The notes beneath the pieces are model-generated. The model did not search any database. It was not told the DNA's origin and saw nothing but the letters and a program-made list of their open reading frames with translations. A stretch of 64,000 nt of DNA, from positions 12,710,001 to 12,774,000 of the forward strand of contig JAGIQG010000036.1 in assembly GCA_024679065.1 (NCBI GenBank). The letters run 5' to 3'. The translations under genes and the position numbers were made by a program. Origin of the DNA: Sphyrna mokarran (taxonomy: Eukaryota). Of this stretch, positions 13,510 to 63,402 are shown piece by piece. Each line of letters begins with the position of its first letter. Position 1 is the stretch's first letter.

Positions 13510-13548
13510 GTTTTTTGTTGAGTGACTGCGTCTCTCTGAGTCACTGTG
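13510..13548 (-). other. 23-RSS of V1
   Basis: CACAGTG-23 bp-ACAAAAAAC. Confidence 0.95.
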
Positions 13549-14316
13549 TAAACGCCAGGCGCAGTAGTACACTGCTGTGTGATTTGCCCACAGCCCAGAT
13601 GACTTCAGGTAAAAGTGAGTTTTGTTGGGTCTTCTGGCAGTGAATCCCTCAACCTCACTGGAGGAAGGATTAACCGTTCCGCGGTAGTTGGAATAAAAAA
13701 TGATCTGAGGCTCACGTTCAGGGTGCCATCGATACCAGTAGAAGTAGTCGCTTGCATCTGATTCCTTGTTAAGGCATTCGATGTTGACTGGAGTGCCTGG
13801 GGAGCTCGATATGGAAGTGGGAGTCTGTTTGATCAGCACTGCAGCAACATCTGTAAAACAGGGAGGGGGAAATATAAACACAAGGATAGTTTGCGTGGGG
13901 ATGCCGAGCATGCAGGGAAAAGGAGGGAAGAGGAGACAGAGAAGCAGAGACACAAGGAGATGGAGAAACTAGGAAAAAGCTAGGAGAGGTTAGAAGAGGA
14001 TAGATGCTGACACGGGGAGAGAGAAAACTATACCTTAAGAAAAGAGAGAAGGGGAGATAGAGATGAGGACTTGGATAACCAGAGAAAGAATGAAGGGAGT
14101 AGAGTGGATAGTCAGGCAGTGCCAGGCAATGGCGACGATAAACGGAAAAATGGATAGAAACAGAGAGAGGTAGACGGTGTTGAGAACATCCACCAACAAG
14201 TTAATGTCAAGGCTGACTTCCGAATGAAGATACCGAGGGCAGTGACAGTGAGTCACATCCAGCTCTACTTTACCCGTTAGCATGAGCAACGCAATCCAGA
14301 GCGGGGATGGAGTCAT
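13549..14316 (-). CDS. TRBV: TCR beta V gene segment V1 (CAW family); leader exon 14274-14316, V exon 13549-13850
   Basis: Leader MTPSPLWIALLMLT + GT donor; ttttacAG acceptor; V exon ...NIEC...YWYRW...NHTAVYYCAWRL followed directly by a 23-RSS. Confidence 0.9.
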
Positions 14317-14555
14317 CTCTGGAGGCTGATCTCAATATTCGTGTGTTTATAGGTGGAATCGCTGAGCCTCTGTCTGACAGCGGGGGAGGGGCTCGGAGAT
14401 CGTCTGCAATGTTGTATGGTCAGAACGAAGGGGACTTCACTTATCTAATCAATTGGCTCCCACCTTTGGTGAGGTAATTTCCGGAGCGGGTTCGAGAGCA
14501 CCCGCCTCCGCCCCTTGGCCCCAGTGTAACTCTGCATTCGGATCTTGTTGTAGCG

Positions 14556-14594
14556 GGTTTTTGTCGCACTCATCCTGTTCATTGTGTCACTGTG
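14556..14594 (-). other. 23-RSS of V2
   Basis: Consensus CACAGTG-23-ACAAAAACC. Confidence 0.95.
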
Positions 14595-15018
14595 GAGTTG
14601 CCAGGCACAGTAATACACCCCAGAGTGGCTCGTCCGCAGGTTGGAAGTTTGCAGGTGGAAAGTAGAGTCGTCGCTCCTCGAGGCATTGAAGCCGTCCACC
14701 TCCGTCCTCGGCTGGATTTGCTCAGTGTTGGGCGAGTGGAAGAGCAGCGAAAGCTCACCGTTTGCGAGCTGGCGGTACCAGGAAAACACCGAGCTGAAGG
14801 AACCCTTTGCTGAGCAGAGAATTTTGAGGTTGGAATTCAGGGGTTTGGAGATTATAGTCGGACTTTGATGAACTGTGCTACCGGCTACACCTGCAAAATA
14901 AGGAGGATAATCATGGGTTAACGTTTCAAATCATCTTCAAATTCAAACTGCGGCAAGCGATTACCTAGGGAGACTCACCATGCAACAGCACAGACACAAA
15001 AAATAGATTTAAATACAT
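14595..15018 (-). CDS. TRBV: TCR beta V gene segment V2 (divergent CAW family); leader 14979-15018, V exon 14595-14890
   Basis: Leader MYLNLFFVSVLLH|GTGAGT; V exon STVHQSP...ILCSAK...WYRQ...SHSGVYYCAWQL, open frame. Confidence 0.9.
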
Positions 15019-15394
15019 TTTGATTAATAGCTCGTACAAGTTAAACCAACCAGACTTTGAATTTCAAATGTCTACAGTCATGGGGACACTTGGCCATTTA
15101 TACAACTGCCCTTCTGTTTGATTGATAGCCACCTACTCCAAGCCCCGCCTACTGGCAGCGCTGATCCCTCCCCCGCCATCCCCATCACTCCATTTCACTA
15201 AAGAGCCTCCTCCCTCACGCCATTGTGTCAAATCTCCTCTGCACCTTCTCTGAGATCTTGACATTAGTTCGTGAATTATGGTGTCTGGAATTGGGCACAG
15301 CACACGCACTCCAGCCGGGAAAATGAACGTTATTTAATATATCGGTGAATGAAATTTGTGAGGAAATTGTCGTTCATTTCTATTCTTCCGGGAT

Positions 15395-16500
15395 ATAGAA
15401 CATAGAACATAGAACATAGAACACTACAGCACAGAACAGGCCCTTCGGCCTTCGATGTTGCGCCGACCAATATAAAAAGCAATGCCCCTCCAAACTAAAC
15501 CATTCCCTTCTCTTCCATATACTTATCAACTAACCTCTTAAACGCCACCAAACTTGGCGCATCTACAACTGCTGCAGGCAGGGCATTCCACTCCCGAACC
15601 ACCCTTTGGGTAAAGAACCTACCTCTGATATCCGTCCTATAACTATCACCCCTTAATTTAAAGCTGTGTCCCCTCGTGCTAGCTTTTTCCATCCTAGGAA
15701 AAAGGCTATCACTGTCCACCCTATCTAAACCTCTAATCATCTTATATGTTTCGATAAGGTCTCCTCTTAGCCGCCTCCTTTCTAACGAAAACAACCTCAA
15801 ATCCCTCAGCCTCTCTTCATAAGACCTGCCCTCCATACCAGGCAACATCCTGGTAAACCTCCTCTGTACCCTCTCCAATGCCTCCACATCTTTCTTATAA
15901 TGCGGGGACCAGAACTGCACACAATACTCCAAGTGCGACCGCACTAGAGTTTTGTACAGTTGCAACATGACGTTGCGGCTCCGAAATTCAATCCCCCTAC
16001 CAATAAAAGCCAAGACTCCATATGCCTTCTTAACAACCTTCTCGACTTGACTGCCTACTTTCAGGGATCTATGCACATACACACCAAGATCCCTCTGTTC
16101 ATCAAGACTACTAAGAATCCTACCATTAGCCCTATACTCTACACATTTATTATTTCTGCCATAGTGCATTACCTCACACTTTTCCACATTAAACTCCATT
16201 TGCCACCTCTCGGCCCAGCTCTGCAACTTGTCTAAGCCCCTCTGCAAACTATAACACCCCTCTTCACTATCTACCACTCCACCGACTTTAGTGTCATCTG
16301 CAAATTTACTAATCCATCCTTCAATACCCTCATCCAGATCATTTATAAAAATTACAAACAGCAGGGGCCCCAAAACAGACCCCTGAGGTACACCACTTGT
16401 CACCGAACTCCACGATGAATATCTCCCATCAACCACCACCCTCTGTCTTCTATCCGCTAGCCAATTCCTAACCCAATTAGCTAAATCACCTTCTATGGTG
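15395..16500 (-). mobile_element. 5'-truncated CR1-type LINE (RT C-terminus, 3' UTR, (TTCTATG)n tail)
   Basis: Intact ORF with [13 protein letters not shown] and FADDTK RT motifs; tandem-repeat tail at 15395-15421. Confidence 0.92.
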
Positions 16501-16574
16501 AACAAAGGTGATATGGTGAATAAAGCAACAACCTGGGGGAAATTGCAAAGGTACTGCGCGAGTCAGGTGTAATC

Positions 16575-16875
16575 ATAGAATCGTAGAGTCCCTATAGTAC
16601 AGAAGGTAGCCATTCGGCCATCGAGTATGTACTAACCATTGTCCCACCCAGGCCCTATTCCTGTAACTCCACCTATGTACCCTGCTAATTCCCCTGACAG
16701 GAAGCTCAATTTAATGTGGCCAATCAACCTAACCCGCACATCTTTGGATTATGGGAGGAAACCGAAGCACCCAGAGGAAACTCACGCAGGTACGGGGAGA
16801 ACGTGCAGACGCCATTCAAACAGTGACACAAAGCCGGAATTGAACCTGGGTCCCTGGCGCTGTGCCACTGCGCTG
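16575..16875 (-). mobile_element. V-SINE
   Basis: GGGAGGAAACCGaAGCACCCaGAGGAAAC core. Confidence 0.7.
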
Positions 16876-17702
16876 TCAACTGTTGGTTTTGGCAACAGTC
16901 CCCAGAAATCATATTGGGATCAACACTTTTAACTCTCTCTCTCTCTCTTTCTCTGCGGAAGCTGCCAAATCTGCAGAGCTTCCGCAGCACTTTCTGTTTT
17001 TCCTGCACACAGATGAAGTTATATTATAAATCCGAGTTAGCTGATGAGGATGGATTAGACATTAAAATCTGTATTGTCCCACAGTAGAGATTCAGCGGCA
17101 CGAGAATATGCAACCAAAAGCGCCCCAGTTTCCCAGTGTAACCAATTAGGAAGGACTTCCTAGATGTACATTGAAATAGATCCGCCCAGTGTAACCAATT
17201 AGAAAGGACTTCCCAGATATACATTGAAATAGATCCGCCTTCTGATAGGTTGCTCTCTCACTGTAGGGATTCTATAATTCTATGATTTTAGACTGGGTCG
17301 GGATAAATGAGTTTCTATCAAGCTGTGCCACAAGGACCGGATGGGGCTTGAACGGTTTGTAATTTATATTAAAGAAGGGGCCGGGTGTATTGGAAAGATA
17401 ATGATATAGGTAAGTAAAATGGGGGGAGGGGGTGCGGGTGCGGGGAAGAGGATACACTGGAAGCTCGTGGAAGGCCTTCACGCTTTAATCTGATCCGAAT
17501 CTCACAATACCATTGATGAACTTGCATCTCACCTTTTGATTGGCATTCACCTCAAACCCCCCTCCCCCTCATTTATCAGGCTATTGTCCCCACGGTCTCA
17601 GTGAGAGATCCACACATACACTGGGGCTCCCACCTCCTAGAAACGTGGCTGATAAAATGGCTTGAGGCTAAACGGGCGGTGGTGGCCTTTTTGATCATTC
17701 AA

Positions 17703-17741
17703 GGTTTTTGTCACAGAGTCGAACTGTTCTGGACCGCTGTG
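17703..17741 (-). other. 23-RSS of V3
   Basis: CACAGCG-23-ACAAAAACC. Confidence 0.93.
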
Positions 17742-18717
17742 CTCCATCAGAAGTTGCACAGTAGTAAAGCGCCGTGTCTGACCCTCTGACGCTGCCCAGC
17801 CGCAGCGCCGATTTCCTATCATCCGAACTTCGGGTGATGGTAAACCCGGCGTTAAAACTCTCTTCATACTTCGCTTGACTCCCCGACATGTAACCGATCA
17901 GAGTGAGCCCCTTCCCGCGGTGCTGCCGGTACCAGAGCATGGTAGTGCGGACTGTTCCATTCTGATAACAGTTCAGTTCGGCAACTTCACTCTCCTGCGC
18001 GGCGAATATAGCCGGCCATTGATGCACCACGTCTTTCGAGAAAGCATCTGCAAAAATATTGCCAATATTAATATATAAATGTTAAACCAGGTACCTCTAA
18101 AATTATCTTTGAGAAGAAACTCGCCCATCAAACTGAGGGCCATTTAATTAGGCGCATTCCCCTCTCAGCAGCCCCAAATCTTTACAAATGTTCTCCCCTG
18201 TCGTCTACACACTAAGGTTCCATTTTGAAAATTACTTTAGAATTAACTTGCATCGTCATTTGAGCGGCTTCCAAAACACAACTCTACTTGAACTAAAAAT
18301 CGCTTTATTTCTCTCACTGCTTGATTTGCCAATTGTTTTACTGACATATTGTTACGTTGACCCCTTGATATGGCTCATTTATTAGTCACAAGTAAGGCTT
18401 GCATTAACACTGCAATGAAGTTAACGTGAAATTTTCCTAGTCGCCACAGTCCGCGCCTGTTCCCATCTATGAGAGTAGATCGGAGCATCCGCACAGACAC
18501 GGGAAGAACGTGCAAGCTCCACACAGACAGAGACCAAAGCCGGGAATCGAACCCGGATGCCTGGCTCTGCGAAGCAGCAGTGCTAGTCATTATTCCACCG
18601 TGCCGCCCCTATAGATGCTATTAGAGTCACAAAATTAGAGTCACAAAATGTCAATAAGTCCCCCTGCTTACATGGCACCAGAAGGATAATAACGAGAGCG
18701 AAAGAATCTAAAGACAT
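17742..18717 (-). CDS. TRBV: TCR beta V gene segment V3; leader 18672-18717, V exon 17742-18047
   Basis: Leader MSLDSFALVIILLVP|GTAAG; V exon VHQWP...LNCYQ...MLWYRQHRGKGLTLIGY...DTALYYCATSD, typical fish TRBV framework. Confidence 0.9.
18375..18608 (-). mobile_element. tRNA-derived SINE in the V3 intron
   Basis: GGGTTCGATTCCCGG box B and the shared AAGCCTTACTTGTGACTAATAAA tail. Confidence 0.7.
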
Positions 18718-19149
18718 CTTGGATTGACTCAAACCCAGTGACAGTGCGCTTTAATGCAATGTTGCCTGATGCCCTGCCCCCTGTGACGTTGGGGCTGAGT
18801 TAATAAATCATTTTAGAAAAGGATTCGGAAGTATCAAATGGGGGTGTCAATCTCCCAGCACAGCTTTTTCACACTGAGAGTTATTAATACTTGGAAGGCA
18901 CTGTCCCACAGTGTGGTGGACGCTGGTTCAGTTGAAGCATTTAAAAGGAAATTGGAAAAGGGAGAATTGCAGGGAATACAGGGAGAGGGCGGGAGAAGAA
19001 AACTAGGTAAATTGCATATTGGGAGAGCCGGTGCAGGCATAATGGGCTGAATGGTCTCCTTCTGTGCAGCACTGACTTTGTCATGAATGTGGCAGTGCAA
19101 TCATTTGCCTGGAACTCGAGATTGTAGCTGGCCACTACTGCTGGAATGG

Positions 19150-19430
19150 CACTGTGGCACAGTGGTTAGCACTGCTGTCTCAGAGGTCAAGGACGCCGGT
19201 TCGATTCCAGGTTTGTGTAACTGCTTATTTGCACCCTCTCTCCAAGTCTGCATGGGGCTGCTCTTGCAGTCCAAAGATGAGCGGGTTAGATGGATTGGCC
19301 ATGCTAAATTGCTTCTTATTGTCAGGGGGACAACTAGCTGGGGCAAATACGTGAGGATAGTGCCTGAGTGGGATTGTGATCGGTGCAAAGTCGATGAGCT
19401 GAACAGTCTCAGTCTACACAGTGGGATTCG
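19150..19430 (+). mobile_element. tRNA-derived SINE
   Basis: GGCACAGTGGTTAGCACTG...GGTTCGATTCC head. Confidence 0.7.
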
Positions 19431-20010
19431 AAGATGACCCTAAAAGCGACTTCAAAAGGGGACTCTCAGAATGAGAGGAGATATCTCAGAGGGCGGTGAT
19501 AACAGAGAGAGAGACCAGGGAGGCACGGGGATGAGAATTTTAAGGAGCATGAGAAATTTTAAATCAAAATTTTGATTGAACGCATGTCATTGTAGGTTAG
19601 TGAGCAAAGCAGTTAATGGGGTTTGGTGCGGGCAAACAGACTGCAGCAGAAATGTAGATAACCTGAAGATTGCGAGGTAGAATGCAGGAGACAGCCAGGG
19701 CTGACGTGGAATAGTCAAGTCGAATGGGAATAGTGACATGGATGAGAATGTTAGCAGCAGATTCGCTGAAATAGTGGCGAAGAGCCGCAAAGTTAATGAA
19801 TTACGTGGGTAGAAATAATAAGGGCAACGTATGAGATCGGAAGCTCATCTTGTGGTCAAATACTACCCAAACTAATGGATTCAATTCTAGGTTGTTGTGA
19901 GAAAGAAGAATGCGTCACCAGCTGGTATGAAGTTGTCCACGTTGGACTGGGGTGGGCGCAGTAAGTAGTCTCACAACACTAGGTTAAAGTCCAACAGGTT
20001 TATTTGGCAG

Positions 20011-20045
20011 CACGAGCTTTCGGAGGGCTGCTCCTTCATCAGGTG
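20011..20045 (-). ncRNA. Minimal hammerhead ribozyme within a Penelope-derived hairpin (19965-20087)
   Basis: cac-CTGATGA-a-GGAG-cagcc-CTCC-GAAA-gcTC-gtg: intact core, stem II, palindromic AGCT stem III, stem I. Confidence 0.7.
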
Positions 20046-21769: not shown

Positions 21770-22098
21770 CTTGAGGGTCAGTACTGAGGGAATCTATACT
21801 GTTTGAGGATCATAACCGAAAGAGTTCTACTTGAGGATCAGTACTGAGAGATTCTGCACTGTCTGAGGGTCAGTACTGAAGGAATCTATACTGTTTGAAG
21901 ATCATAACTGAAAGAGTTCTACTTGAGGGTCGGTACTGAGATTCTACACTGTCTGAGGGTCAGCACTGAGGGAGCCTGCACTGAGACTACTCGTGAAGCT
22001 ACTGACGGTCTCTGCACTATCTGCGAGTCAATACTGAGGGTAACTGCACTGACTGAAGGTCAGTACTGAGATACCCTGCACTATCTGAGGGTCAGTAA
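21770..22098 (+). repeat. ~33-bp minisatellite (GAGGGTCAGTACTGAGGGA.TCTGCACTGTCT), left part
   Basis: Tandem degenerate units. Confidence 0.85.
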
Positions 22099-23418
22099 TC
22101 AAGTGACCAAAGACGTGGATGGGGGTAAGGCTGTTGATGTGGTATATATGGACTTTAGTAAGGCGTTCGATAAGGTGTTGATAAGGCTTCTGCAGAAAAT
22201 GCAGCTTATTGAAACATATAAGATAATTAGAGGTTTGGATAGGGTGGACAGTGATAGCCTTTTTCCTAGGATGGAAAAAGCTAGCACGAGGGACACCTTT
22301 AAATTAAGGGAAAAACAACAAACACCAAAGGTTTGGGAGTGGAATGCCTGCCTGCAGCGTTGTAGATGCGCCAAGTTCAAAAAAAAAAAAAAAACACACA
22401 CACACAACCACCCCACACTATGCTATGGGATAGAGGGTGATTTAGCTAATTGGATTAGGAATTGGCTAGCGGATAGAAGACAGAGGGTGGTGGTTGATGG
22501 GAGATACTCATCGTGGAGTTCGGTTACAAGTGGTGTACCTCAGGGGTCTGTTTTGGGGCCCCTGCTGTTTGTAATTTTTATAAATGATCTGGATGAGGGT
22601 ATTGAAGGATGGATTAGTAAATTTGCAGATGACACTAAAGTCGGTGGAGTGGTAGATAGTGAAGAGGGGTGTTATAGTTTGCAGAGAGACTTGGACAAGT
22701 TGCAGAGCTGGGCCGAGAGGTGGCAAATGGAGTTTAATGTGGAAAAGTGTGAGGTAATGCACTATGGCAGGAATAATAAATGTGTAGAGTATAGGGCTAA
22801 TGGTAGGATTCTTAGTAGTCTTGATGAACAGAGGGATCTTGGTGTGTATGTGCATAGATCCCTGAAAGTAGGCAGTCAAGTCGAGAAGGTTGTTAAGAAG
22901 GCATATGGAGTCTTAGCTTTTATTGGTAGGGGGATTGAATTTCGGAGCCGCAACGTCATGTTGCAACTGTACAAAACTCTAGTGCGGCCGCACTTGGAGT
23001 ATTGTGTGCAGTTCTGGTCCCCACATTATAAGAAAGATGTGGAGGCATTGGAGAGGGTACAGAGGAGGTTTACCAGGATGTTGCCTGGTATGGAGGGCAG
23101 GTCTTATGAGGAGAGGCTGAGGGATTTGAGGTTGTTTTCGTTAGAAAGGAGGCGGCTAAGAGGAGAACTTATCGAAACATATAAGATGATTAGAGGTTTA
23201 GATAGGGTGGACAGTGATAGCCTTTTTCCTAGGATGGAGAAAGCTAGCAGTTGTAGATGCGCCAAGTTTGGTGGCGTTTAAGAGGTTAGTTGATAAGTTT
23301 ATGGAAGAGAAGGGAATAGTTTAGTTTGGGGGGTCATTGCTTTTTTCATAATTGGTCGTCGCAACATCGAAGGCCGAAGGGCCTGTTCTGCGCTGTAATG
23401 TTCTATGTTCTATGTTCT
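22099..23418 (+). mobile_element. Rearranged CR1 LINE RT fragment with (TTCTATG)n tail
   Basis: [19 protein letters not shown] and FADD motifs; internal duplicated/misplaced segment at ~22205-22420. Confidence 0.88.
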
Positions 23419-24690
23419 GACTACTCTGGATCCCCCCCCCCCGAATCTGTTTAAAGCCCCCTGCATAGCCTTTGCAAATTTTCCCCCCACGATGTTAGTT
23501 CCCCTCTGGTTCAGGTGTAGACCATCTCTCTTGTAGAGGTCCCACCTATCCCAGAATGAGTCGCAATTGTTCAGGAACCTGAACCCCTCCCTCCTGCACC
23601 ATCCCCGCAGCCACGAGTTCAAACATTCCCTCTCTCTGTTCTTCTCTAAACTATCCCGTGGCACAGGCAAGAGTCCAGAGATAACCACTCTGCCAGCTTT
23701 GGCCCTAAGCTTCCACCCCAACTCCATAAATATCTGTTTAATATTCCCTTCCCTTGTCCTACCTATATCATGTGTCCCTACATGAACTATGACTTGGGGC
23801 TGACTCCCCTCTCCCTTAAAAATCTTAAAAACCCGCTTGGCGACATCCTGGACCCCAGCCCCTGGGAGGCAACACACCAGCCCTGAGTCCCTTTTATTAC
23901 TATTTACTCTCCTATCGGTCCCCTTAACTATGGAGTCTCCAATTACCAGGCCCAATCGCTTATTCCCCCTACCCACCTGAGCATTCTCAGCTGGCTCACC
24001 CCCAGAGACCTGCTCCCTTTGGCCATCTCCAGTTGATTCTTCCTCAACTGTAGCCTCCAGGACAGAAAATTTGTTTTGGAGGGGAACAGCCCCAGGGGAT
24101 TGTCTACCCAATTGCTTCTTACCCCTCTTCCTAATAGTTACCCAAGAATCACTTTTAGGAGTGACTATCTCTTTGTTACTCCTGCCAATATCCTCCTCAA
24201 CCTCTCGAATTATCCTGAGTTCCTCTAATTCCAGCTCCATCTCCTTAACACGATCCTCAAGGAGCTGCAGATGGGCACACTTCCTGCAGGTATAATCAGC
24301 AGGAACACTACTGATGTCCCTCACCTCGTACATACTACAGGAGGTGCAACGTACTGCCTGCATTGCCATCCCTGATACTTTAATTTCCAGGAGAGAAGAA
24401 AAACTTCCCACACACTTTTATTATTAGGTTCGAGGAGGGGGGAGGGTGGGATACTCTACCTGTGTAGAGTATCGGGTTTCCTCTCTGTACCAATTTATAG
24501 AGTCAGAGAGAAAAACTACAACTACCGGCAAGCCTCCTAATGACGACTTCCGGTTTTCAGTTAGTTTAAATAAAAACGGCAAAAAACTACCACCGCTCGC
24601 TACTTTAACCAAAGAGAAAAAGTTAAAAATCACTTAACACTCGAACTTTACGCTCTGCCAAATCGCTGCCTCTCCGTGCTGCTCCAAGGG
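23419..24690 (-). mobile_element. CR1 LINE 5' part: 5' UTR plus ORF1 (Zn-finger/leucine zipper and SGNH esterase)
   Basis: CTSC...CRKC, leucine heptads, VIGDSIV, HVGTHD and DGLHLN motifs in ORF 23410-24411. Confidence 0.9.
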
Positions 24691-24769
24691 AACAATGAGG
24701 CCGATACCCAGAGGTTAGTACTTATATAGCTTAAAAAACTACAACTACCGGCTATGCTGGAATAGATGC

Positions 24770-39152: not shown

Positions 39153-40350
39153 AATCATCTAATGGTTAGCTCTCTGGCCAACCGTTTTGACTGATGCTAA
39201 GTGGATGAACAGGCAGAGCACCAGTTAACTTCTTTGAAATTTTGGCTTAAGATCTTTGAGAATGACCAGAAGTTTCCAGTTGATTTCTTTGTTATCATGC
39301 GGAGCGTTAGCTTGCAGCTCTGAGTACATGAAGCGAGACTTTAATCAATACACTTCCGGTCAGAAGGAAAAGTTATGCCATCTGAGCCACGGTTGACACT
39401 AAGAGTTAATGATGTAGAGGTTGTCATGTGCATCTAAAGATGTAACTTGACTTGGAAGTGTCTCGATATTGGTTTGAGCTGAGATTGTCCATTTGTGTTC
39501 GAATTTTGTGACTCTTGCATTCCTTCAATACCATCACCACCAACCCAACCTTCATGAATATTGCTGTTCTATACTTTATCAAATTCAACCCACATATCCG
39601 CCAAGTCATTGCACATACCGTCAGTATAATTGCCACAAGCTCATCCTCATCAACCTGGCCATTGTTATTTGAACCACGTCAGAGTTATCATTAGGGATTT
39701 ATTATTCATTCTCCAGATGTGCAAAGGCAACATATATTGGCCAGCCAAGTAGAGAAATGTTCTGTTAGGCAACTGGAGAAGGCAGTTACAATTGTTCTCT
39801 GCCTGGTGTCTTATAGACCCTAAGTGAATGAGGTGGCAAATTTCCTCCCTTCTATTATATGGTTGCTATGGTCGAAACCAGCTTCTCATTCCAGCCCCGT
39901 TTACTTTAAAAGAACATCCTGCTTACAACATGTGCGTCCTTGAGAAGTTGGTGATAAATGACTGCAGCGCTTGTTCTCAGGACCCTGGCCCAGCAGCAGC
40001 AATGAATTAACTATATCGTTCCAGATCAGAGAACCGCCTTCATGGAGAGAAATCTGCAGGGAGCAGCGATCCCCTTGTGTCTGCTGACCCTAGTGGCGCA
40101 GCTTAGGGGTTCCGTTGATGAATGAGACATAACGAGCTGCGAAAGTGTATTTTGTAGATGACAAACTGCCGCCGGAAGTGAATGGAGTGAAATTCTCCTA
40201 CTGCCACGGAGAATTTGAACACCTATATTCTAGATCAGTATCTCAGGCCTCCAGGTGACTAGCTCCAACAACGGAATCACTATGCTAACCTCTCTAGAGA
40301 CTGAGGCAGGTCATTTTGTGCCGAAAGCCCTGCATTCGTGTAACACTGTG

Positions 40351-41132
40351 GACACCTTTGTATGCTATACAGTAATACGTGCCGCTGTCTTCGACCTGGG
40401 AGCCCTTCACGAATAGAGTGAATGCATTCTCCGTTGGGTCATGTTTGACCTCCGTTCGTTTTCTGTGCCTAGGTGAAGAAAATATCCCGGATCTGATCCA
40501 TTCAATTTGGTCGCCGATCTGGATGAACCAGTGCAACCAATAGTTGGTCATGTTGCCTTGCCAGATGCTGCAAGAGAAAGTGGCTTTCTTGCCTGGAGAT
40601 ATAACCATTGCCGACGGAGACTGAAAGATTAGGTGTCTCGAGCAAACATCTAAAAAAAATTAAATCAAGACAGCAAATCAATCAGGAGACAAAATCATAA
40701 GTAGAAGGTGGGGCAGAGGTAGGAGACGGTAAAAGAGAAATTAATAGATTAGGTTTCTCAGGTAACATTGCTACATTCCTTCTTATATTAGCTCTTCAAG
40801 TCCAATTATCAATTGGATTTTGTTAAAATTTAAACAATAAACGCGCCAAACTCTGAAATTGTTCCGAGTCAGATCACGGCGGTTCTGAAAGAAGAAAACG
40901 AGTAATAGTACTGTGGAAATAAACTGGAATTACAGCACTTTAGTGGATTAAGGCACAGTGAAATATTTGCGTTTTGTTCGCCAGCATTTATAACCGAACG
41001 CAAAAGTATTTGTGAACAGTAAACGTGGGTGAAGAAGCAGCGAAGGCACGAACTGGGAGCTCTTGTTTCTGCTACCTTATACATACAGGCATTAGGCAAG
41101 AGAAATATAGAAAGCCAAATAATAGTGAACAT
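40351..41132 (-). CDS. Divergent V gene segment V7 (paralog of V6; ORF with damaged RSS); leader 41087-41132, V exon 40351-40649
   Basis: Leader MFTIIWLSIFLLPNA|GTATGT; V exon IFQSP...FSCSIWQGNMTNYWLHWFIQ...EDSGTYYCIAYKG; perfect heptamer at 40344-40350 but no good nonamer. Confidence 0.83.
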
Positions 41133-42945: not shown

Positions 42946-42984
42946 GGTTTTTGTTGAACTGCTCCATCTCTCTGAGTCACTGTG
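42946..42984 (-). other. 23-RSS of V8
   Basis: CACAGTG-23-ACAAAAACC. Confidence 0.95.
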
Positions 42985-43511
42985 AACAATCCAGGCACAA
43001 TAATACACTGCCGAGTGATTCACCCGCAGGCTGGAGGATTCCAGGTTGAACTCGGAGCCAGACGGTCGCTTGGCGGTGAAACTGTCCAACGTCTCCTTTG
43101 GATTCACGTCTTGAGCAACTGCGGAGTAAAACATCAACTGGAGTTCCTTGCCCGGGTATTGCCTGTACCAGAATCTCCTACCAGTACTGCTGCCTTCCAC
43201 GGTGCATTTCAGAACCACTCCGTCCCCGGGATATTTCGAGACAGCAGCGGGAAACTGGAGGACCTTCTCTGAGTTCACGCCTGAGTAAAGTACGGGCAGA
43301 GAAAGAAGTCAATAAACAGAGACATTCCCGTAATGGGCCAGAGCGAAAAGGGAATGAAAGATAAACGAGACAAAGGCACCAGAGAGACAGGAGGTGAAGA
43401 AGATGGGGATTGAGGGGGAGGGAAGGTAGAGGGTGTGGGTGGTAGAGCACGAATTTCTGAGTAAATATTCTTACAGTGAAATAAAGTCACCAAGCTCAGG
43501 ACCAGGTACAT
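42985..43511 (-). CDS. TRBV: TCR beta V gene segment V8 (TRBV30-like CAW family); leader 43475-43511, V exon 42985-43280
   Basis: Leader MYLVLSLVTLFH|GTAAG; LKCTVEG...WYRQYPGKELQLMFYS...NHSAVYYCAWI. Confidence 0.9.
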
Positions 43512-46889: not shown

Positions 46890-48388
46890 TAGAACATAGA
46901 ACATAGAACATAGAACAATACAGCACAGAACAGGCCCTTCGGCCTTCGATGTTGTGCCGACCAAAATAAAAAGCAATGCCCCTCCTAACTAAACCATTCC
47001 CTTCTCATCCATATACTTATCAACTAACCTCTTAAACGCCACCAAACTTGGCGCATCTACAACAGCTGCAGGCAGGGCATTCCACTCCCTAATCACTCTT
47101 TGAGTAAAGAACCTACCTCTGATATCCGTCCTATAACTCATACCCCTTAATTTAAAGCTGTGTCCCCTCGTGCTAGCTTTCTCCATCCTAGGAAAAAGGC
47201 TATCACTGTCCACCCTATCTAAACCTCTAATCATCTTATATGCTTCAATAAGATCCCCTCTTAGCCGCCTCCTTTCTAACGAAAACAACCTCAAATCCTT
47301 CAACCTCTCTTCATAGGACCTGCCCTCCATACCAGGCAACATCCTGGTAAACCTCCTCTGTACCCTCTCCAATGCCTCCACATCTTTCTTATAATGTGGC
47401 GACCAGAACTGCACACAATACTCCAAGTGCGGCCGCACTAGAGTTTTGTACAGCTGCAACATGATGCTGCGGCTCCTAAATTCAATCCCCCTACCAATAA
47501 AAGCTAAGACTCCATAAGCCTTCTTAACAACTTTATCCACTTGACTGCCTACTTTCAGGGATCTATGACACATACACCAAGATCCTTCTGTTCCTCAACA
47601 CTATTAAGAGCCCTACCATTAGCCCTATACTCTACACATTTATTGTTCCTGCCAAAGTGCATTACCTCACACTTTTCCACATTAAACTCCATTTGCCACC
47701 TCTCGGCCCAGCTCTGCAACTTGTCCAAGTCACTCTGTAAACTAAAACACCCCTCTTCACTATCTACCACACCACCAACTTTAGTATCATCTGCAAATTT
47801 ACTGATCCATCCCTCAATACCCTCATCCAGATCATTTATAAAAATTACAAACAGCAGGGGCCCCAAAACAGACCCCTGAGGCACACCACTCGTCACCGAA
47901 CTCCACGATGAATATCTCCCATCAACCACCACCCTCTGTCTTCTATCTGCCAGCCAATTTCTAATCCAATTAGCTAAATCACCCTCTATTCCACACATCT
48001 GCATTTTCTGTAGAAGTCTTCCATGGGCCACCTTATCAAAAGCCTTACTAAAGTCCATATATACTACATCAACCGCCTTACCCCCATCCACCTCTCTGGT
48101 CACTTTCTCAAAAAACTCAATGAGGTTAGTAAGGCATGACCTACCCTTCACGAAACCATGCTGACTATCCCCAATCAATTCATTTCTCTCTAAATAACTA
48201 TAAATCCTATCCCTAATAATTCTCTCCAATACCTTGCCCACCACAGAAGTAAGACTCACTGGCCTATAATTCCCAGGAAGGTCTCTCTTCCCCTTCTTAA
48301 ACAATGGGACCACATTCGCCATCCTCCAGTCCTCCGGAACCACACCCGTAACCAACGAGGACCTGAAGATCAGAGCCAGAGGCTCAGT
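46890..48388 (-). mobile_element. Young 5'-truncated CR1 LINE (RT domain, one frameshift)
   Basis: NYRPVSLTS, QHGF, DFSKAFDKV and FADD motifs; (TTCTATG)n tail; absent from the paralogous cassettes. Confidence 0.92.
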
Positions 48389-48513
48389 AGTCGATCATTT
48401 TCATTTTAACCCTTGACTTTTATTCTCAATAACATGTTCACTCGACAAGATAACATGGCAAGGCGAATCACAGCACAGAATTGTCAGTGACAGCTGTTTC
48501 TTGCTGCCTTTGG

Positions 48514-48552
48514 GGTTTTTGTTGAGCTGCTCCATCCCTCTGAGTCACTGTG
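48514..48552 (-). other. 23-RSS of V9
   Basis: CACAGTG-23-ACAAAAACC. Confidence 0.95.
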
Positions 48553-49023
48553 AATACTCCACGCGCAGTAATACACGGCCGAGTGATTCGCCAGCAGGCT
48601 GGAGGCATTCAGGTTGAACTCATTCATATTCGGTCTCACGGCGGTGAAGCTGTCCACCGTCCCTTCTGAATTCACGATTTGTGCAGTTGCAGAATGAAAC
48701 ATCAGTTGCAGTCCCCTGCCCGGATATTGTCGGTACCAGTACATATAACCGCTACTAGCTCCCTCAGATTTACAAGCCAACTTCACTCCTTCCCCAACAA
48801 GTTTGGAGACAGCGGTAGGGGTCTGATGGATCTGCACTGAGTTTACATCTGGAAGACCCATGGGGAGAGCAGAACGTTAATAAATAAAGAAATCCTGGTG
48901 GTGAATCAGCAAAAGGAAATAAAGTACTTGAGGCAGAAGGAAAGGAAATCATAAGAGATTGTTGCCCAGAAAAACACATGACTTACATTGAAATAACATC
49001 GCGAGGCCTAGTAACACATACAT
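48553..49023 (-). CDS. TRBV: TCR beta V gene segment V9 (CAW family); leader 48987-49023, V exon 48553-48848
   Basis: Leader MYVLLGLAMLFQ|GTAAGT; IHQTP...LACKSEG...YWYRQ...NHSAVYYCAWSI. Confidence 0.9.
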
Positions 49024-52912: not shown

Positions 52913-52951
52913 GGTTTTTGTTGAGCTGCTCCATCTCTCTGAGTCGCTGTG
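52913..52951 (-). other. 23-RSS of V10
   Basis: CACAGCG-23-ACAAAAACC. Confidence 0.93.
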
Positions 52952-53421
52952 AATACTACCAGCGCAGTAATGCACGGCCGAATGATTCGCCAGCAGGCTG
53001 TGGGCATTCAGGTTGAACTCATTCATATTCGGTCTCACGGCGCTGAAGCTGTCTACCGTCCCTTCTGAATTCACCATTTCTGCAGTTGCAGAATAAAACA
53101 TCAGCTGCGGCCCCTTGCCCGGATATTGTCGGTACCAGTACATGTAATCGGTATTGGCTCCCTCAGCGTTACAATTCAATTTCACTGCATCCCCAATAAA
53201 TCTGGAGACAGCGGCGGGGGTCTGATGGATCTGCACTGAGTTCACATCTGAAATAGAGATGGGGTGAACAGAGCATTGATAAATAAGGAAATTCTAGTGG
53301 TGAAGCAGCAGCAAAAGGAAATAAAAGAAAAGCAGGAGGAAAGGAAATCCTAAAAGACGTTGTCCAGAAAAAGACATGACTTACACTGAAATAACACCGT
53401 GAGGCCTAGTAACACATACAT
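52952..53421 (-). CDS. TRBV: TCR beta V gene segment V10 (CAW family, atypical HYCAGS end); leader 53385-53421, V exon 52952-53247
   Basis: Leader MYVLLGLTVLFQ|GTAAG; paralog of V9/V11; NHSAVHYCAGSI. Confidence 0.87.
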
Positions 53422-57353: not shown

Positions 57354-59099
57354 TTTTGTTGTTAACCTTTTGTTGCATTAGAGAAATATCCGGTAACACG
57401 AGAGACCAGTATTTTGGGGAGTCAACTGGTCGTCTGTTAAATCATTGAGAAAACCTGAAGGACCAAAGGGAACCCCGCCCTCACTGGCAGGAAGACACGC
57501 CCTATTTCTATGATTGGCTCGAAGTGGGGACAGGAAGTGCCAAAAAGGGCAGAGATAGATGAAGCGAGTGTGCTCAGAAAATAGATAAAATATGTGCGAG
57601 TAGGTCTGACAGCATCTATGGAGAGCGAATAGAACCAAAGTTTCGAGTCTGGATGTCACCTTGGTTCGCTCTTGAAAAGAATAATCCAGGCTCGAAACGG
57701 TGGTCCTATATTCTCTCCACAGTTGCTGTCAGGCCTGCAGAAGTTACCCAGCATTTTCTGCTCTGTTTCAGATTCCAGCAGTATTTTTCCTTCGGACAAA
57801 GTGTGACATCGCCTTAAGCAATTTAGAGTGGCGCATCTTCTAACTGGCGAGAGGAGCTGTGGTGAAGGAAAGGAGTTCAGCGCCATAAATCGCTAAAACC
57901 AGGCAGGCCTGGACAAAACGGACTTCAAACTGTCATCGAATTCTCGCTTTTGCACCGTGGAAATTGGGGTATCGAAGGCGGGGGATTTCCATAAATTGCA
58001 ACAGAACTTTGGAACACTGGGCACAGATCTGGGAAAGCACATCCATACCAACCCACAGAATACCTACATCCATGGGTGGCACGATGGGCACAGTGGCTAG
58101 CATTACTTCCTCACAGCGCCAGGGTCCCAAATTCAAATCGCGGCTTGCGTCACTGTCTATATGGAGTTTAGACATGCTAAATTCTCCCTCAGTATACCTA
58201 AAGAGGCACCGGAGGAATTTTCACAGTAGCTTCAATTGCAGTTACTGTGACACTAATAAATAAAAATAAAGGAGGATGTAGGGATTGCAAATCCTTCTAT
58301 CTACACAAATAGAGATCCAAGCCGGGAATCGAGCCCAGGTCCCTGGAGATGCGAAGTAATATTGTTAACCATTGTGCTAATTAAGGCCGGACCATTCAGA
58401 GGTGAGGTCACGAAACATTCCTTTACAGAAACTGTCGGGGAATTTTCCCCTCCAGAGAATGGTCGAAGGCTGATGCTTAATTGGACATTTCAAGACTCAG
58501 ACTAGTATAGGCTTCTTGGTTAGTACGTTGAAAAATGAGGGCTGAAGGTGGCGAGTATCTATCAGCCATGATCTCTTTGTACAGTATTACGGTAAGGTCA
58601 CTCGACTGGTAATCCAGAGGTTAATGTTCCTCGCGATATGGGCCCATATCCAACCACGGCAGTTGGTGAAATTTCAAAACAAGACATTAGTACCTATCTG
58701 GAACTGCGAGCAAGGAAACATCAAGTTGATTGCCACCTATTGCCAGTAACCCACTCTGCAATGATGAATCGGTTTTCTTCCACGTCGGAATGTCAGTTGG
58801 CATTCTGAATGTGGCAAGAATGCTCACTGCAACCTGAATAGGAATTTTCAAATTCCAGCAACATTGCAGTTTGATAATACCATCACTAGCCCAGTCGTAA
58901 AGATCGTAGCTGATAGGCTGAGGCTGCAAGAGGTATTGAGAGGACCAAAAGAGCAAAGCCTACTTGACTTAATCCTCACCAAGCCACAGCACTAATGGAT
59001 TACAAAAGGATCTGGTGGATCAACGAGGATCTGAGCATCCACGAGGCATGGTGTGTCACCGGCAAGTAGTAGAATTGTATGCAACCACAATCTGTAACT

Positions 59100-60340
59100 C
59101 ATTCTCCCATTACCATCAAACTAGATGATCATTCCGGGAGTTTAATGAAGCGTATAGGAAGGCCTGCCAAGATCAGCATCTGACATAGATTAAATGAGGT
59201 GGCAGCATGGCGACTAATTAAGTAACCTATACATTACAGGATTACTGCACGCCAAATTGCAAACCAGCTCTGAAGTACAGAACTTAGCGAATCCACTACT
59301 GACGGATCTGCTCTGCAAACCTGCTACAAACTGTCATAAATGCTGGTAAGACAATCGAACAGATAACGGGAGAAGGGGGTTCCACTAACATCGCCTCCAT
59401 GATGATGGGAGGGTGGGGGGGGGGGGGTCAGCAGGTCCGTACAACAGATAAAGCTGAATCATTCGCAGAAACCTTCAGCCAGAAGTACAGAGAGGAAGAT
59501 CCATCACGTCTCCTGAAATGTCCCAATTCCATTCGCTGCATGTAATAGCAAGAAACGCCTGAAGGCACTGAATGCTGAAAAGACTATGAGCCCTGACAAC
59601 ATTCTAGCAATAGCAATTAAGACTTGTGCTCCACAACTAGCTGCTCCTCTGGTCAAGGTAGTCCAGCATTGCTTCAGCACTGGCATCTACTCAGCTATGT
59701 GCAAAATTGTTCAGGTAAATCCGGGCAAATACAGTCAAAATAATTACAGTTCCACCTATCTATTTTCAATCACCAGCAATGTGATTGAAGGTATCGTAGA
59801 AAGTGCGACCTTGCTCTACTTTCACGGCAATAACCAGTTCACCCAGATACAGATTACATTTCTTAGGTTCACCCAGGTTCTGTTTTTATTACAGTTTTGC
59901 TCCATACAAGAGATGAATTCAAGAGATGAGGTGAGTGTGATTGACGTTGACATCTGCCTTATAAAAAGACTGGCGAAACTGAAGTCAATGGAGCCAGGGG
60001 GAATCTCTTCGCTGGCTGGAGTCATACAGAGCGCAAACGGAAACGCTTGTAGCTGTTGAAGTTCAGTCATCTCAATCCGAGGTCATTGCTGCAAGAGTTC
60101 CCCTAGCTCCCCTAGCTCCTAGCTCCTTCATTAATCAGTCTCCCTCCATCACAAGGTAGAAAGTGAGGATATTCACTGATAATTACACAATGTTCCGCAC
60201 CATTCATGGTTTTTCAGTTACTGAAGCATTCCTATAGGCAGCAAGATTTGGACAACATTGAAGCTTAGGCTGACGGGTGGTACGTAATACTTTCGCCTCA
60301 CAAGCGGCAAGGAGTGACTGCCTCCAAAAAGAAATAATCC
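59100..60340 (+). mobile_element. Degenerate LINE RT fragment
   Basis: PDNI.AIAIKTCAPQLAAPL.K..Q.....GIY motif typical of the LINE ORF2 pre-RT region. Confidence 0.7.
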
Positions 60341-61399
60341 TCCACTTCCTGTGTTCCAATTAAGCAATGTCCTCGGAATTGATGTGTTCAATGGTGTCGG
60401 AGCGCCCTCATCAGGTATTGTGGAGAAAGACAATATCAATCTGTATAAAATTGTTTTCTTTGATCTCTTTTTTCCCTTTCTTTCCTCATTCCTTCTGATA
60501 TGCCTTATCCAGAACCTACTTCACCTCTCCACGAAAACCACCGTCAACTGAATTTGCTCCTCGCTTTACTACAGGATGGGTTACTGTTTCACTGTATCAG
60601 TATATCTTTCTATTCCTTTCTCTTTTATAAAATATTCATTTATTGGTGGGATATGGGCGACGCTGGCTGGCCAGCATTCATTGCCCATCTCTAGTTGCCC
60701 GAGGGCAGTTGAGAATCAGCCACATTGCTGTGGTCCTGGAGTCACGTGTAAGCCGGATCAGGTATGTACAGCAGATTTCCTTCCCTCAAGGGATATGAAT
60801 GAATCAAACAATCGACAATAGTTTAATGATCACCAGTAGGTTCTTAATTTCAGATATCTTTTATTTGAATTCAAATTCCACCATCTGGCGGGATTCGAAC
60901 CCGGGTCATCCAGAGCATTAGCTGAGTTTCTGAATTACTAATCTAACGATAATACCACTCGGCATGATCTCCTCTTTATCCAGCTTCCACCGTAAAATAC
61001 ATCTGCTCTATTCGCCTCAGACCACACCCAGACAGCAAATTCCACACTCTCAGAGTTCCTGTGTGAAGACTTTCCCTAATTCGCAGTGAAATTTATGAGT
61101 AATGCATTTTATTTACCAAGTTTCATTTCACTCAAGTCCATCTTTCCTACCAACCCTCTGTCAGAAGTTCATGACCTGTATCAGGTAGAACAAGTTCCGT
61201 CTTTCCTGGTAATGTAAAATTCTCATATCTAGCAGCATCCCTGCTAAATTTCATGTTCACCTTCTCCAGCGCTCCTGAAACTTGCTTTCCATTCTAACAT
61301 TCCTTATGATTGTCCAAATCATCTTCCCTCGGCAAAGATGAATCACAGTGGCTCCAAGCACTCCTGCAGTTTTGTCTCGATCATCCTGCTGCCTTTGGG

Positions 61400-61438
61400 G
61401 GTTTTTGTTGAACTGCTCTATCTCTCTGAGTCACTGTG
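61400..61438 (-). other. 23-RSS of V12
   Basis: CACAGTG-23-ACAAAAACC. Confidence 0.95.
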
Positions 61439-61895
61439 AAGACTCCAGGCGCAATAATACACGGCCGTGTGATTCACCCGCAGGCTGGAGGACTCCAAAT
61501 TGAACTCAGAGCCACTCGGTCTCTGGGCGCTGAAACTGTCCACCCTCTCCTGTGGATTTACGGCATTGGTACCTAAGGAGTAAAACATGAGCTCAAGTTC
61601 CTCTCCCGACTTTTGTCTGTACCAGTACATGTTTGGGTTACTGGTCCCTTCCACAGTGCACTTCAGGTTCGCACCCTCCCCAGGAAATTTGGAGATAGCG
61701 GCGGGTGTCTGACGAATAGTCTGCGAGTCCACTCCTAGGAAAGAGAAGGAAATGAGCACATTGTGAACAGTGAAGAGAGAAAAAGAGGAAAAACAGAGTG
61801 AAAGAAATGATTAAGATTAATGATTATGAGTCATTATTCTTTGAAAGAAGTTTCTTACGGTGAAACCAGACGATTAACCCCAGTAACAAATGCAT
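61439..61895 (-). CDS. TRBV: TCR beta V gene segment V12 (most TRBV30-like); leader 61859-61895, V exon 61439-61734
   Basis: Leader MHLLLGLIVWFH|GTAAG; SQTIRQTP...KCTVEGTSNPNMYWYRQ...LELMFYS...NHTAVYYCAWSL. Confidence 0.92.
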
Positions 61896-62524
61896 CTTTA
61901 TTAGGAATTTCTCTTTCGGTAAAAAAAAGGCTGTAACAGCCAGAGTTGTGTGAGAACCCGTCCTTTTTATATCATTGAAAGAAACAATGTAACGTTGCAA
62001 CGTTTTACATACCCCCTTCCTCTGTCAAACCAATCAGAATGGTTGAGCTGCTAATTAGCAATGATTGACAGGATTGACTGCAGTTACATTCTCAGGAACT
62101 GCGTCCGTCACTCCCATTTAACCTAACTCAATCATCTGAACTACAATTGATCGCATCTGGATTTATATTCAACATGTGACAAATGCCTAAGCAATTGAAC
62201 CACATTGCTCGAAGGAAGGCCTTTAGAAGTCAGAGAACGCAACATGGGAACTTGCACATCACCACTGGCTTATTAGTTTGCTCTATGATAACAAAGTGGA
62301 TTGAATGATCCCGCCATGAGGGATCATTCGATATGCAGCTAACTCAGGCTCCCTCAGAAGCGCCAATCAATGAAATCGATTGTGACAATTGGCAGATGTG
62401 GAATTCTGTGTATGGGTGAGCTTATATCGCATTTATCTCTGTCTCCCTTTCTCTCCCTTTGTCATTCCCCCTTTGTCTCACACTATGCTCTTTTTTAAGT
62501 AGCCCCTCTCTGCTTCCTTCAAAG

Positions 62525-62782
62525 TAAAGTTTACTTACTAATCACAAGTAAGGCTTATATTAACACTGCAATGAACATACTGAGAAATTCCCCTAGTCGC
62601 CACAATCCAACGCCTGTTCGGGTCAATGCACCTAACCAACACGTCTTCCGGACTGCAGAAAGAAACCGGAGCACCCGGAGGAAATCCACGTAGACACGGG
62701 GAGAATGTGTAGGCTCCACACAGACAGCGACTCAAGTCCGGAATCGAACCGCTATGCTAACCACTGTGCCACTGTGCCGCCA
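62525..62782 (-). mobile_element. V-SINE
   Basis: AAACCGGAGCACCCGGAGGAAA core and tRNA-like head. Confidence 0.72.
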
Positions 62783-63075
62783 TAACTCCATCTCTGTCTC
62801 TCAATCTGTCTCACTCACCGTCCCGACCCCTCTCTCTATCTCATTCTGTTTCATCTTTCCATTCTGTGTCTCCCAGTCTTTCTCTTTCTGTATATCTAAT
62901 TGACTTCTTGCTCGTTCTCTCTCTCTGCATCGTTCTGTTCTTCGCTTATTCGTGCGCTTTTTCTTTGTATCTCTCTCTCCTCTGTGTTGCCTTCTCTGGC
63001 CTCTTCATTCCCTCGCTCTCTATTTATCAGCCTCTTTTTTGGCTAACTTGCCTGTCTGCTCTCTTTCTGGTTTCC

Positions 63076-63114
63076 GCTTTTTGTACGACGCACCTCGCCT
63101 TTTGCTGCGCTGTG
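63076..63114 (-). other. 23-RSS of V13
   Basis: CACAGCG-23-ACAAAAAGC. Confidence 0.9.
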
Positions 63115-63402
63115 CCTTACTACAGACGCAGTAAAAAACGGCGGAACGTGACAGATTGGCCGACTTCAACAGAAAGTGCGTGTTGTTGGGCCTCTCGGCT
63201 GTAAAGGGCTCCTTGGTGTACGGAGTAATCATTTCCTTGGTGGAAGAATAGAACAGGGCTTCGGGTTGCGAGTCCGAATACTGCCGGTACCAGTACAGAT
63301 AGCTGTAGCTCGGATCCTTCAGCACACAGCTCAGCCGGAATGGCTCACTCCCCGACACCGTCAGAAACACCGGGTCCTGCTCCACAAAAGTGCTTCTGTC
63401 GC
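63115..63402 (-). CDS. TRBV: TCR beta V exon V13 (divergent CAW-related; leader not found, probably beyond the window)
   Basis: tttcacAG acceptor; FVEQDP...LSCVLK...YWYRQ...FTAERPNNTHFLLKS...SAVFYCVCSK; FR3 resembles V1. Confidence 0.82.

What the first reader, a model, noticed from the sequence alone, without database searches (positions are those of the whole stretch)
13510..63402. Germline shark TCR-beta-type V array: 13 open V segments from several deep lineages in 50 kb
Seen: 13 co-oriented minus-strand V exons, each with an abutting heptamer and most with a 23-spacer RSS and a phase-1 leader, plus one pseudogene. Established: V-23RSS with CAW/CAT/CAA ends fits TRB. Inference: this is a translocon V cluster whose RSSs face the low-coordinate side, mixing very different lineages (CAW family, GLTLIGY family, MSSYTMLW type, V6/V7 type).
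Basis: partly seen in the sequence, partly recalled or inferred. Interest (0 to 1): 0.7.

Follow-up and report, generated by a model that had tools for sequence, protein, structure and literature searches.

The report
Backward-facing shark TCR-beta gene array
These 13 shark T-cell-receptor beta gene pieces sit behind their constant gene and face backwards, so they would be joined by flipping the DNA; that layout is already tabulated for a bamboo shark, but three of the pieces likely belong to the lineage of the human V-delta-2 receptor, and the genome holds a second, small beta locus elsewhere.

Summary
Observation confirmed: 13 open minus-strand V-set exons (11 with a 23-spacer RSS, one 22, one 24) plus one broken V. 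They are TCR-beta segments: a TRB-type D, seven J and a TRBC gene lie just below the window. The same layout, with matching order of the C-proximal Vs, is in a supplementary table for bamboo shark (PMC10322711), so the architecture is known. Two extras: (1) V30294, V36434 and V40350 group with Vdelta2-like V genes of bony vertebrates and an atypical fish Vbeta family (95/96 support); V30294 is the top shark hit of two such genes, ahead of all scored TRA/D Vs, and an IgH origin is rejected (p-AU 0.01). (2) A second, intact-looking TRB unit with only three open Vs sits on another large scaffold (dS about 0.43, dN/dS about 0.4). An earlier scan note saw a broken copy of the atypical V at that second locus. 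No transcript was found, so use of these Vs is inferred. Verdict: new member of a known kind, moderate interest.

The parts
63076..63402 (-). V63114: open V exon (63402-63115) and 23-RSS; divergent branch of the CAW clade; leader not found inside the window
   Evidence: its start and end resemble nurse shark beta-V2 primer peptides printed in PMC5931798
61400..61895 (-). V61438: leader 61895-61859, V exon 61734-61439, perfect 23-RSS; CAW clade
   Evidence: best single-V PDB hits are TCR beta chains incl. 3hg1 MEL5, named TRBV30 in PMC5887915
56839..57353 (-). V56877: leader 57353-57317, V exon 57173-56878, perfect 23-RSS; CAW clade
52913..53421 (-). V52951: leader 53421-53385, V exon 53247-52952, 23-RSS; CAW clade (ends CAGS)
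48514..49023 (-). V48552: leader 49023-48987, V exon 48848-48553, perfect 23-RSS; CAW clade
42946..43511 (-). V42984: leader 43511-43475, V exon 43280-42985, perfect 23-RSS; CAW clade
40311..41132 (-). V40350: leader 41132-41087, V exon 40649-40351, 24 spacer with weak nonamer; atypical, Vdelta2-like lineage
36397..37210 (-). V36434: leader 37210-37165, V exon 36733-36435, 22-spacer RSS; atypical, Vdelta2-like lineage
30256..30591 (-). V30294: V exon 30591-30295, 23-RSS; uncertain 64-nt leader candidate at 31788-31725; closest shark match of Vdelta2-like genes
29603..29787 (-). Broken 3' part of a V30294-like segment, frameshifted, degenerate heptamer
27364..28499 (-). V27402: leader 28499-28454, V exon 27705-27403, 23-RSS; GLxxIG clade of typical fish-like Vbeta
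17703..18717 (-). V17741: leader 18717-18672, V exon 18047-17742, 23-RSS; GLxxIG clade
14556..15018 (-). V14594: leader 15018-14979, 88-nt intron, V exon 14890-14595, perfect 23-RSS; CAW clade
13510..14316 (-). V13548: leader 14316-14274, V exon 13850-13549, 23-RSS; CAW clade; the V nearest to TRBC
772..1370 (.). Last piece of the non-coding block that is colinear with the second TRB locus (3' flank of TRBC). D (C949:12,685,742-754), seven J (12,686.2-12,689.4 kb), C exon 1 (12,699.7 kb) and TM exon (12,704.9 kb) lie on the plus strand 5-24 kb below the window start

Best explanation
The window is part of a shark T-cell-receptor beta locus: an array of V segments lying downstream of the D-J-C unit on the opposite strand, which would be joined to D-J by inversion. 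Shown: the Vs, their RSSs, the plus-strand D with a 12-spacer RSS on its 5' side and a 23-spacer RSS on its 3' side, seven J with FGxG motifs and splice donors, and TRBC exons. Inferred from the 12/23 rule: D joins J by deletion; a window V (23-RSS) then joins the D 5' 12-RSS by inverting the 38-87 kb between them, which leaves V-D-J-C co-oriented and deletes nothing. The array mixes at least three old lineages: the CAW clade (8 of 13, nearest human match TRBV30), a typical fish-like clade (2 of 13), and an atypical clade (3 of 13) that likely shares ancestry with Vdelta2-type V genes. The two Vs with 22 and 24 spacers likely rearrange poorly.
For: D core matches the conserved TRBD printed in PMC11754216 but for its end. 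The C exon is C1-set and most named TCR chains among its top 60 PDB hits are beta chains; the TM exon has the lysine-bearing TCR motif. No N lies in 464 kb around the locus. All 22 full-length stop-free Vs 3' of C are on the minus strand. The bamboo shark table lists 15 inverted Vs 3' of each TRBC, mostly classed functional; the four C-proximal Vs match this window in order by RSS offset (16, 16, 20, 17 in both), leader length (43, 43, 46, 46 against 43, 40, 46, 46 nt) and one 88-nt intron; both bamboo shark C-beta genes are expressed. Inverted TRBV genes are stated to rearrange by inversion in mammals and newt. The second locus also carries an inverted V 3' of its C.
Against: No transcript of this animal was found: the only run with a share covered a LINE and had zero depth on the three V exons tested. 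The match to bamboo shark is by table features, not by sequence. The top three PDB hits of the C exon are not TCR chains. No EPH ligand-binding exon was found on C949 and no trypsin hit near the locus among 150 listed, so the tetrapod flanking-gene order is not reproduced. V trees have only about 104 columns and many open forks.
Confidence: 0.9

Rival explanations
1. The inverted position is an assembly artefact and the array really lies upstream of D, co-oriented.
For: A 99.6-99.8% identical inverted duplication of about 19 kb exists at the far end of the locus, so local inversions or assembly quirks occur here.
Against: No gap between C and the window; non-coding colinearity with the second locus runs from upstream of D into the first 1.4 kb of the window; bamboo shark has the same layout and order.
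Confidence: 0.03
2. The three atypical Vs (30294, 36434, 40350) are IgH-derived segments captured in the TRB locus, like the IgH-type Vs known in TRA/D loci.
For: The best genome hits of V30294 outside itself are IgH-type Vs on C994 (58 bits, 42%); PDB sequence and fold searches return mostly VH domains.
Against: With bony-vertebrate references added, its four best scores are non-IgH (200-203 and 177 against 168 for the best IgH V); the tree places it in a 95/96 clade apart from IgH; the AU test rejects a clade with the five IgH rows (p 0.01); Cys-Trp and Trp-Cys spacings equal those of the Vdelta2-like set (13 and 53-55). The PDB is dominated by antibodies.
Confidence: 0.08
3. The three atypical Vs are simply a fast-evolving ordinary Vbeta family whose likeness to Vdelta2 is convergence or long-branch attraction.
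For: A tree with all TRBV genes as one clade is not rejected (p-AU 0.057). The Vdelta2-like references came from a search seeded with V36434, so they were preselected. The V36434 group has a long stem branch. Relatives sit in teleost TRB gene models.
Against: Reciprocal searches rank V30294 first in the shark genome for a gar gene (74.5 against 59.7 bits) and for an opossum gene (65.9 against 50.3 for the best non-TRB hit) whose top PDB hits are human TRDV2. V30294 is not a long branch (0.6).
Confidence: 0.3
4. The array serves TRA/D, TRG or an Ig locus rather than TRB.
For: CAW ends and 23-RSS also occur outside TRB.
Against: The only D-J-C within 240 kb below and 160 kb above the window is TRB-type; TRA/D-, TRG- and Ig-like genes map to other scaffolds.
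Confidence: 0.02

Closest known systems
Chiloscyllium punctatum TRB locus (Giorgetti et al. 2023, PMC10322711, Supplementary Table 3; table read)
   Same: 13-nt D, seven J per unit, two D-J-C units, a large V array 3' of C in inverted orientation, matching order of the four C-proximal Vs.
   Different: Its two units lie back to back about 100 kb apart on one scaffold, each with 15 inverted Vs. Here one unit is on C949 (19 Mb) with 16 full-length Vs upstream and 22 downstream, the other on C738 (58.6 Mb) with three open Vs. No V with RSS offset 22 (the V36434/V40350 type) is in its table.
3'-inverted TRBV genes of bony vertebrates: mammalian TRBV30, skink (1), tuatara (5), catfish (9), newt clusters (PMC11754216, PMC8656973, PMC12698447; passages read)
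   Same: V genes behind TRBC, opposite strand, used by inversion. The CAW clade's best single-domain human matches include a TRBV30 receptor.
   Different: Here more than half of the locus's Vs are 3'-inverted, and the CAW clade occurs on both sides of D-J-C.
Human TRDV2 and related TRA/D V genes of opossum, sparrow, bowfin, gar and paddlefish
   Same: Same CDR1/CDR2 spacing and framework motifs as V30294; one supported clade; the opossum gene and V30294 even share two extra cysteines at the same spacing.
   Different: Those genes belong to TRA/D loci where a name shows it (bowfin model, human TRDV2; the locus of the gar, paddlefish and sparrow genes was not checked). The shark members sit in TRB loci, at 36-48% identity only.
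Salmonid TRBV6 (PMC10464911; passages read)
   Same: Described as an atypical Vbeta with 9-residue CDR1 and 3-residue CDR2, which fits the teleost relatives P0110 and P0125 of the atypical shark Vs.
   Different: Sequence not compared; trout TRBV6 has introns inside the V exon, the shark genes do not.
Squamate TRE locus and salmonid duplicated TRB loci (PMC11754216, PMC10464911; passages read)
   Same: A TRB V-D-J-C unit duplicated to another genomic place, as inferred for C738.
   Different: The C738 unit keeps a TRB-like C (66% identical in exon 1), seven J and an ordinary TM exon; no sign of a new chain type, and no genome duplication is involved.

Membership tests
TRB locus V segments | V-set exon with conserved Cys-Trp-Cys and a 3' 23-spacer RSS | tested here: met
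   13 of 13 V-set; 11 of 13 with 23 spacer, one 22, one 24
TRB locus V segments | Linked TRB-type D with 12/23 RSS, FGxG J segments and a TRBC gene | tested here: met
TRB locus V segments | Found in rearranged transcripts spliced to TRBC | not testable with these tools
   no run covered the V exons
TRB locus V segments | Tetrapod flanking genes (EPHB6, trypsinogens, MOXD2) | tested here: inconclusive
   no EPH ligand-binding hit on C949 among 14; no trypsin hit near the locus among 150 listed; MOXD2 not searched. Catfish TRB also has other flanks
Plain translocon with co-oriented upstream Vs | V array 5' of D and on the same strand as D-J-C | tested here: not met
   window Vs are 3' of C and on the opposite strand
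Vdelta2-like lineage (V30294, V36434, V40350) | One clade with TRDV2-like genes | tested here: met
   95/96 support in a 53-row tree; SH-aLRT 85 for a wider group that also holds TRAV rows in the 66-row quick tree
Vdelta2-like lineage (V30294, V36434, V40350) | Exclusion from a single TRBV clade | tested here: inconclusive
   p-AU 0.057
Vdelta2-like lineage (V30294, V36434, V40350) | Use with TRDC or pairing with a gamma chain | not testable with these tools
   no transcripts; position argues for use with TRBC
IgH-type V in a TCR locus (VH-delta, TAILV) | One clade with IGHV | tested here: not met
   p-AU 0.01 against five shark IgH-type rows; TAILV sequences themselves were not available by name

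The most novel reading that the evidence does not exclude
The V lineage that gave human Vdelta2 is older than the split of the TCR loci or jumped between them: in sharks it survives only as beta-chain V segments behind TRBC, and a duplicated mini TRB locus on another chromosome kept one such V among just three, giving sharks a distinct class of alpha-beta T cells with a delta-like, short-CDR2 beta domain that may see non-peptide or non-MHC ligands.
Probability: 0.3. Interest if true: 0.7.

Novelty: new member of a known kind. Interest (0 to 1): 0.4.

Why it matters
It gives a complete map of a shark TCR-beta locus and shows that inversional joining must carry over half of its V repertoire, placing the 3'-inverted V arrangement of mammals in a much older and larger form. 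If the three atypical Vs are true Vdelta2 relatives, V lineages are not confined to one TCR locus, which bears on the old proposal that the alpha-delta and beta-gamma loci arose by duplication (discussed in PMC12227049, passage read). A second beta locus on another chromosome raises a testable question about allelic and locus exclusion in shark T cells.

Tried and rejected
RNA route: the look-up of sequencing runs listed five runs with shares of 0.08-0.18; the one laid (X1) covered only the LINE, depth zero on V13548, V14594 and V17741. Homologue search with V36434 among longer proteins found nothing. Searches used the wrong frame of the C exon and are void; the right frame was run against the genome and PDB but not against the large protein database. 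Structure prediction of V30294 was confident (pLDDT 92) but fold searches returned VH domains and a Vdelta domain (1tvd) within about one Z unit of each other, so they cannot assign a lineage. The ESM Atlas named TRG, TRA and IgL clusters at tied scores. No remnant of a second D-J-C was found inside the C949 locus. Flank scans used 148 of 352 and 148 of 254 candidate ORFs, so flanking genes are incompletely known. Ten paper searches and the passages read gave no account of a Vdelta2-like V in a shark TRB locus or of a shark TRB unit on a second chromosome; older subscription papers on horned shark, skate, nurse shark and catshark TCR-beta were not held or not read (Ott et al. 2021 not held), so either point may be in print.
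Full report
Observation. An RSS scan and six-frame translation found 13 stop-free V exons on the minus strand, with heptamers at 63114, 61438, 56877, 52951, 48552, 42984, 40350, 36434, 30294, 27402, 17741, 14594 and 13548. All 13 pass the Pfam V-set cut-off. Eleven have a 23-spacer RSS with at most two mismatches, against none on the plus strand and a mean of 0.06 in 200 shuffles. V36434 has a 22 spacer and V40350 a 24 spacer with a weak nonamer. Leader candidates in phase 1 exist for 12 of 13. A broken V lies at about 29603-29787.

What the locus is. The window is G000:C949:12,710,001-12,774,000. I fetched 240 kb below and 160 kb above it; there is no N in this region. On the plus strand, 5-24 kb below the window start, lie one 13-nt D with a 12-spacer RSS on its 5' side and a perfect 23-spacer RSS on its 3' side, seven J segments with FGxG and splice donors, a C1-set exon and a TM exon. 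The D core matches the conserved TRBD quoted in PMC11754216 except at its end (passage read). Most TCR chains among the top 60 PDB hits of the C exon are beta chains, although the top three hits are other Ig-family chains. This is a TRB locus. That it is a shark rests on the nearest named protein (Chiloscyllium punctatum) and on the clustered Ig genes of the genome; I did not determine the species.

Architecture and mechanism. The locus spans about 12.586-12.836 Mb. Sixteen full-length stop-free Vs lie upstream of D (12 co-oriented, 4 inverted) and 22 lie downstream of C, all inverted; 13 of those are the window's (at least two of the 22 have a defect, a lost cysteine or a non-CAC heptamer). 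By the 12/23 rule (established knowledge) a window V can only reach the D 5' RSS by inverting the 38-87 kb between them, which retains both joints. This step is inferred, not observed. Inversional use of 3' TRBV genes is stated for mammals (PMC10464911) and newt (PMC12698447).

Prior art. Supplementary Table 3 of PMC10322711 (file 16, part 1 read) maps the bamboo shark TRB locus: two D-J7-C units back to back on one scaffold, 15 inverted Vs behind each C and five Vs between. The four Vs next to its first C have RSS offsets 16, 16, 20, 17, the same as V13548, V14594, V17741 and V27402, similar leader lengths, and the second has an 88-nt intron as does V14594. Both bamboo shark C-beta genes gave repertoires. 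The passages of the main text that I read do not discuss the layout; one supplementary PDF could not be read. So the 3'-inverted array is already on record for sharks, and smaller versions are known in catfish (9 Vs), tuatara (5) and skink (1).

Lineages. A 63-row tree of all 38 locus Vs, three C738 Vs, 20 outgroup Vs and two database proteins gave a 31-row CAW clade (94/93) holding 8 window Vs, a GLxxIG group (94/95) holding V17741 and V27402, and left V30294, V36434 and V40350 unplaced. The best single-V PDB matches of V61438 are TCR beta chains, among them MEL5, named TRBV30 in PMC5887915. Nurse shark beta-V2 primer peptides in PMC5931798 resemble the ends of V63114. A CAW end alone is not diagnostic, since a V on the TRA/D-IgH scaffold has it too.

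The three atypical Vs. Inside the genome V30294 scores best against IgH-type Vs. A search of 1.84 billion representatives with V36434 returned 184 hits, 150 listed; among them were teleost gene models that fuse a similar V to TRB J and C (P0084, P0125), a paddlefish V 48% identical to V30294 (P0099), and Vs of bowfin (a TCR-alpha model), gar, sparrow and opossum. The opossum gene's 11 best PDB hits are human TRDV2 chains. In a 53-row tree (13 redundant rows dropped from the 66, which itself used 18 of 38 locus Vs) these and the shark genes form a 15-row clade with 95/96 support. A clade with IgH is rejected (p-AU 0.01); a single clade of all TRBV is not (p 0.057). Searched back in the shark genome, the gar gene hits V30294 first (74.5 bits, next 59.7) and the opossum gene hits V30294 first and the C738 relative second (65.9 and 54.2; best non-TRB 50.3); each search scored only 150 of 494 and 329 candidates. 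Fold searches and the ESM Atlas could not separate lineages. I put a shared Vdelta2-like ancestry at about 60%. Trout TRBV6 is described with a 9-residue CDR1 and 3-residue CDR2, which fits the teleost relatives; I could not compare its sequence.

Second locus. Only two TRBC-like exons were found in the genome: C949 and C738:57.906 Mb (69% identical; the next hit is 42%). The C738 unit has one D, seven J, C and TM exons, three open Vs with leaders and RSSs upstream (two co-oriented, one inverted) and a broken inverted V downstream; no other V was found in 400 kb. Its core is colinear with the C949 core at 65-82% nucleotide identity, introns included, so it is not an uncollapsed haplotype. Over 347 codons dS is 0.43 and dN/dS 0.41, consistent with purifying selection. 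One V pair is 72% identical between the loci and 61-66% to a bamboo shark relative, a weak hint that the duplication is later than that split. One of its three Vs is of the atypical type. An earlier scan note (e1-9832121) described the broken copy there and left its family unsettled; its mention of bamboo shark clusters sent me back to the supplement.

What failed. No RNA evidence was obtained. Tetrapod flanking genes were not found near the locus; the flanks instead show a 7TM receptor, a two-pore potassium-channel exon and an SRCR/GSDH/folate-receptor-domain gene on C949, and a multi-SRCR gene on C738 (148 of 352 and 148 of 254 ORFs scanned). Ten paper searches gave no description of the two extras, but the older shark TCR papers are not held.

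Verdict. A real, germline shark TRB V array, 3' of the constant gene and inverted; a new member of a known kind. The architecture scores low for novelty because it is already tabulated in bamboo shark; the Vdelta2-like segments and the separate mini locus lift the interest to about 0.4.

Noticed in passing
G000:C738:57,875,000-57,964,200 (L026-L035): Second TRB unit (D, seven J, C, three open Vs, one broken inverted V) 0.6 Mb from the end of a 58.6-Mb scaffold, next to a multi-SRCR gene at about 57.844-57.856 Mb.
   Followed up: yes
G000:C949:12,527,548-12,553,267 and 12,578,134-12,591,122 (L041-L047, L012): Near-identical (99.6-99.8%) inverted duplication of about 19 kb that copies two broken V genes outside the locus; a recent palindrome or an assembly quirk.
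   Followed up: no
G000:C949:12,631,100-12,641,900 (L007-L008): The strand pattern of the upstream Vs resembles the bamboo shark locus with its second D-J-C unit missing at this point; no D-J-C remnant was found by blastn.
   Followed up: partly
window 30296-30591 and 29665-29787: V30294 and its broken neighbour carry two extra cysteines five residues apart near CDR2, as does the opossum Vdelta2-like protein P0107; a possible extra disulphide.
   Followed up: no
window 15498-16562, 22070-24417, 33915-34928, 46992-48394: LINE fragments between the Vs: reverse-transcriptase pieces and an esterase-type ORF1. Ordinary.
   Followed up: partly
L020:4433-5197 and L039:8772-9713: Related 7TM receptors (63% identical) beside both TRB loci; probably members of a large shark family.
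   Followed up: partly
L056:1057-1500; L057:384-1142; L058:7242-7691; L059:8972-9829: Two-pore potassium-channel exon and a gene with folate-receptor, GSDH and SRCR domains (HHIP-like architecture, name recalled) on the 3' flank of the C949 locus.
   Followed up: no
L074-L077 (C1027) and L080 (C772): V exons already joined to J-like sequence in the germline, without an RSS.
   Followed up: no
G000 small contigs such as C734, C750, C780, C815, C1338, C1493: About 55 of the 150 listed trypsin-family hits are a single-exon protease gene repeated on many small contigs.
   Followed up: no
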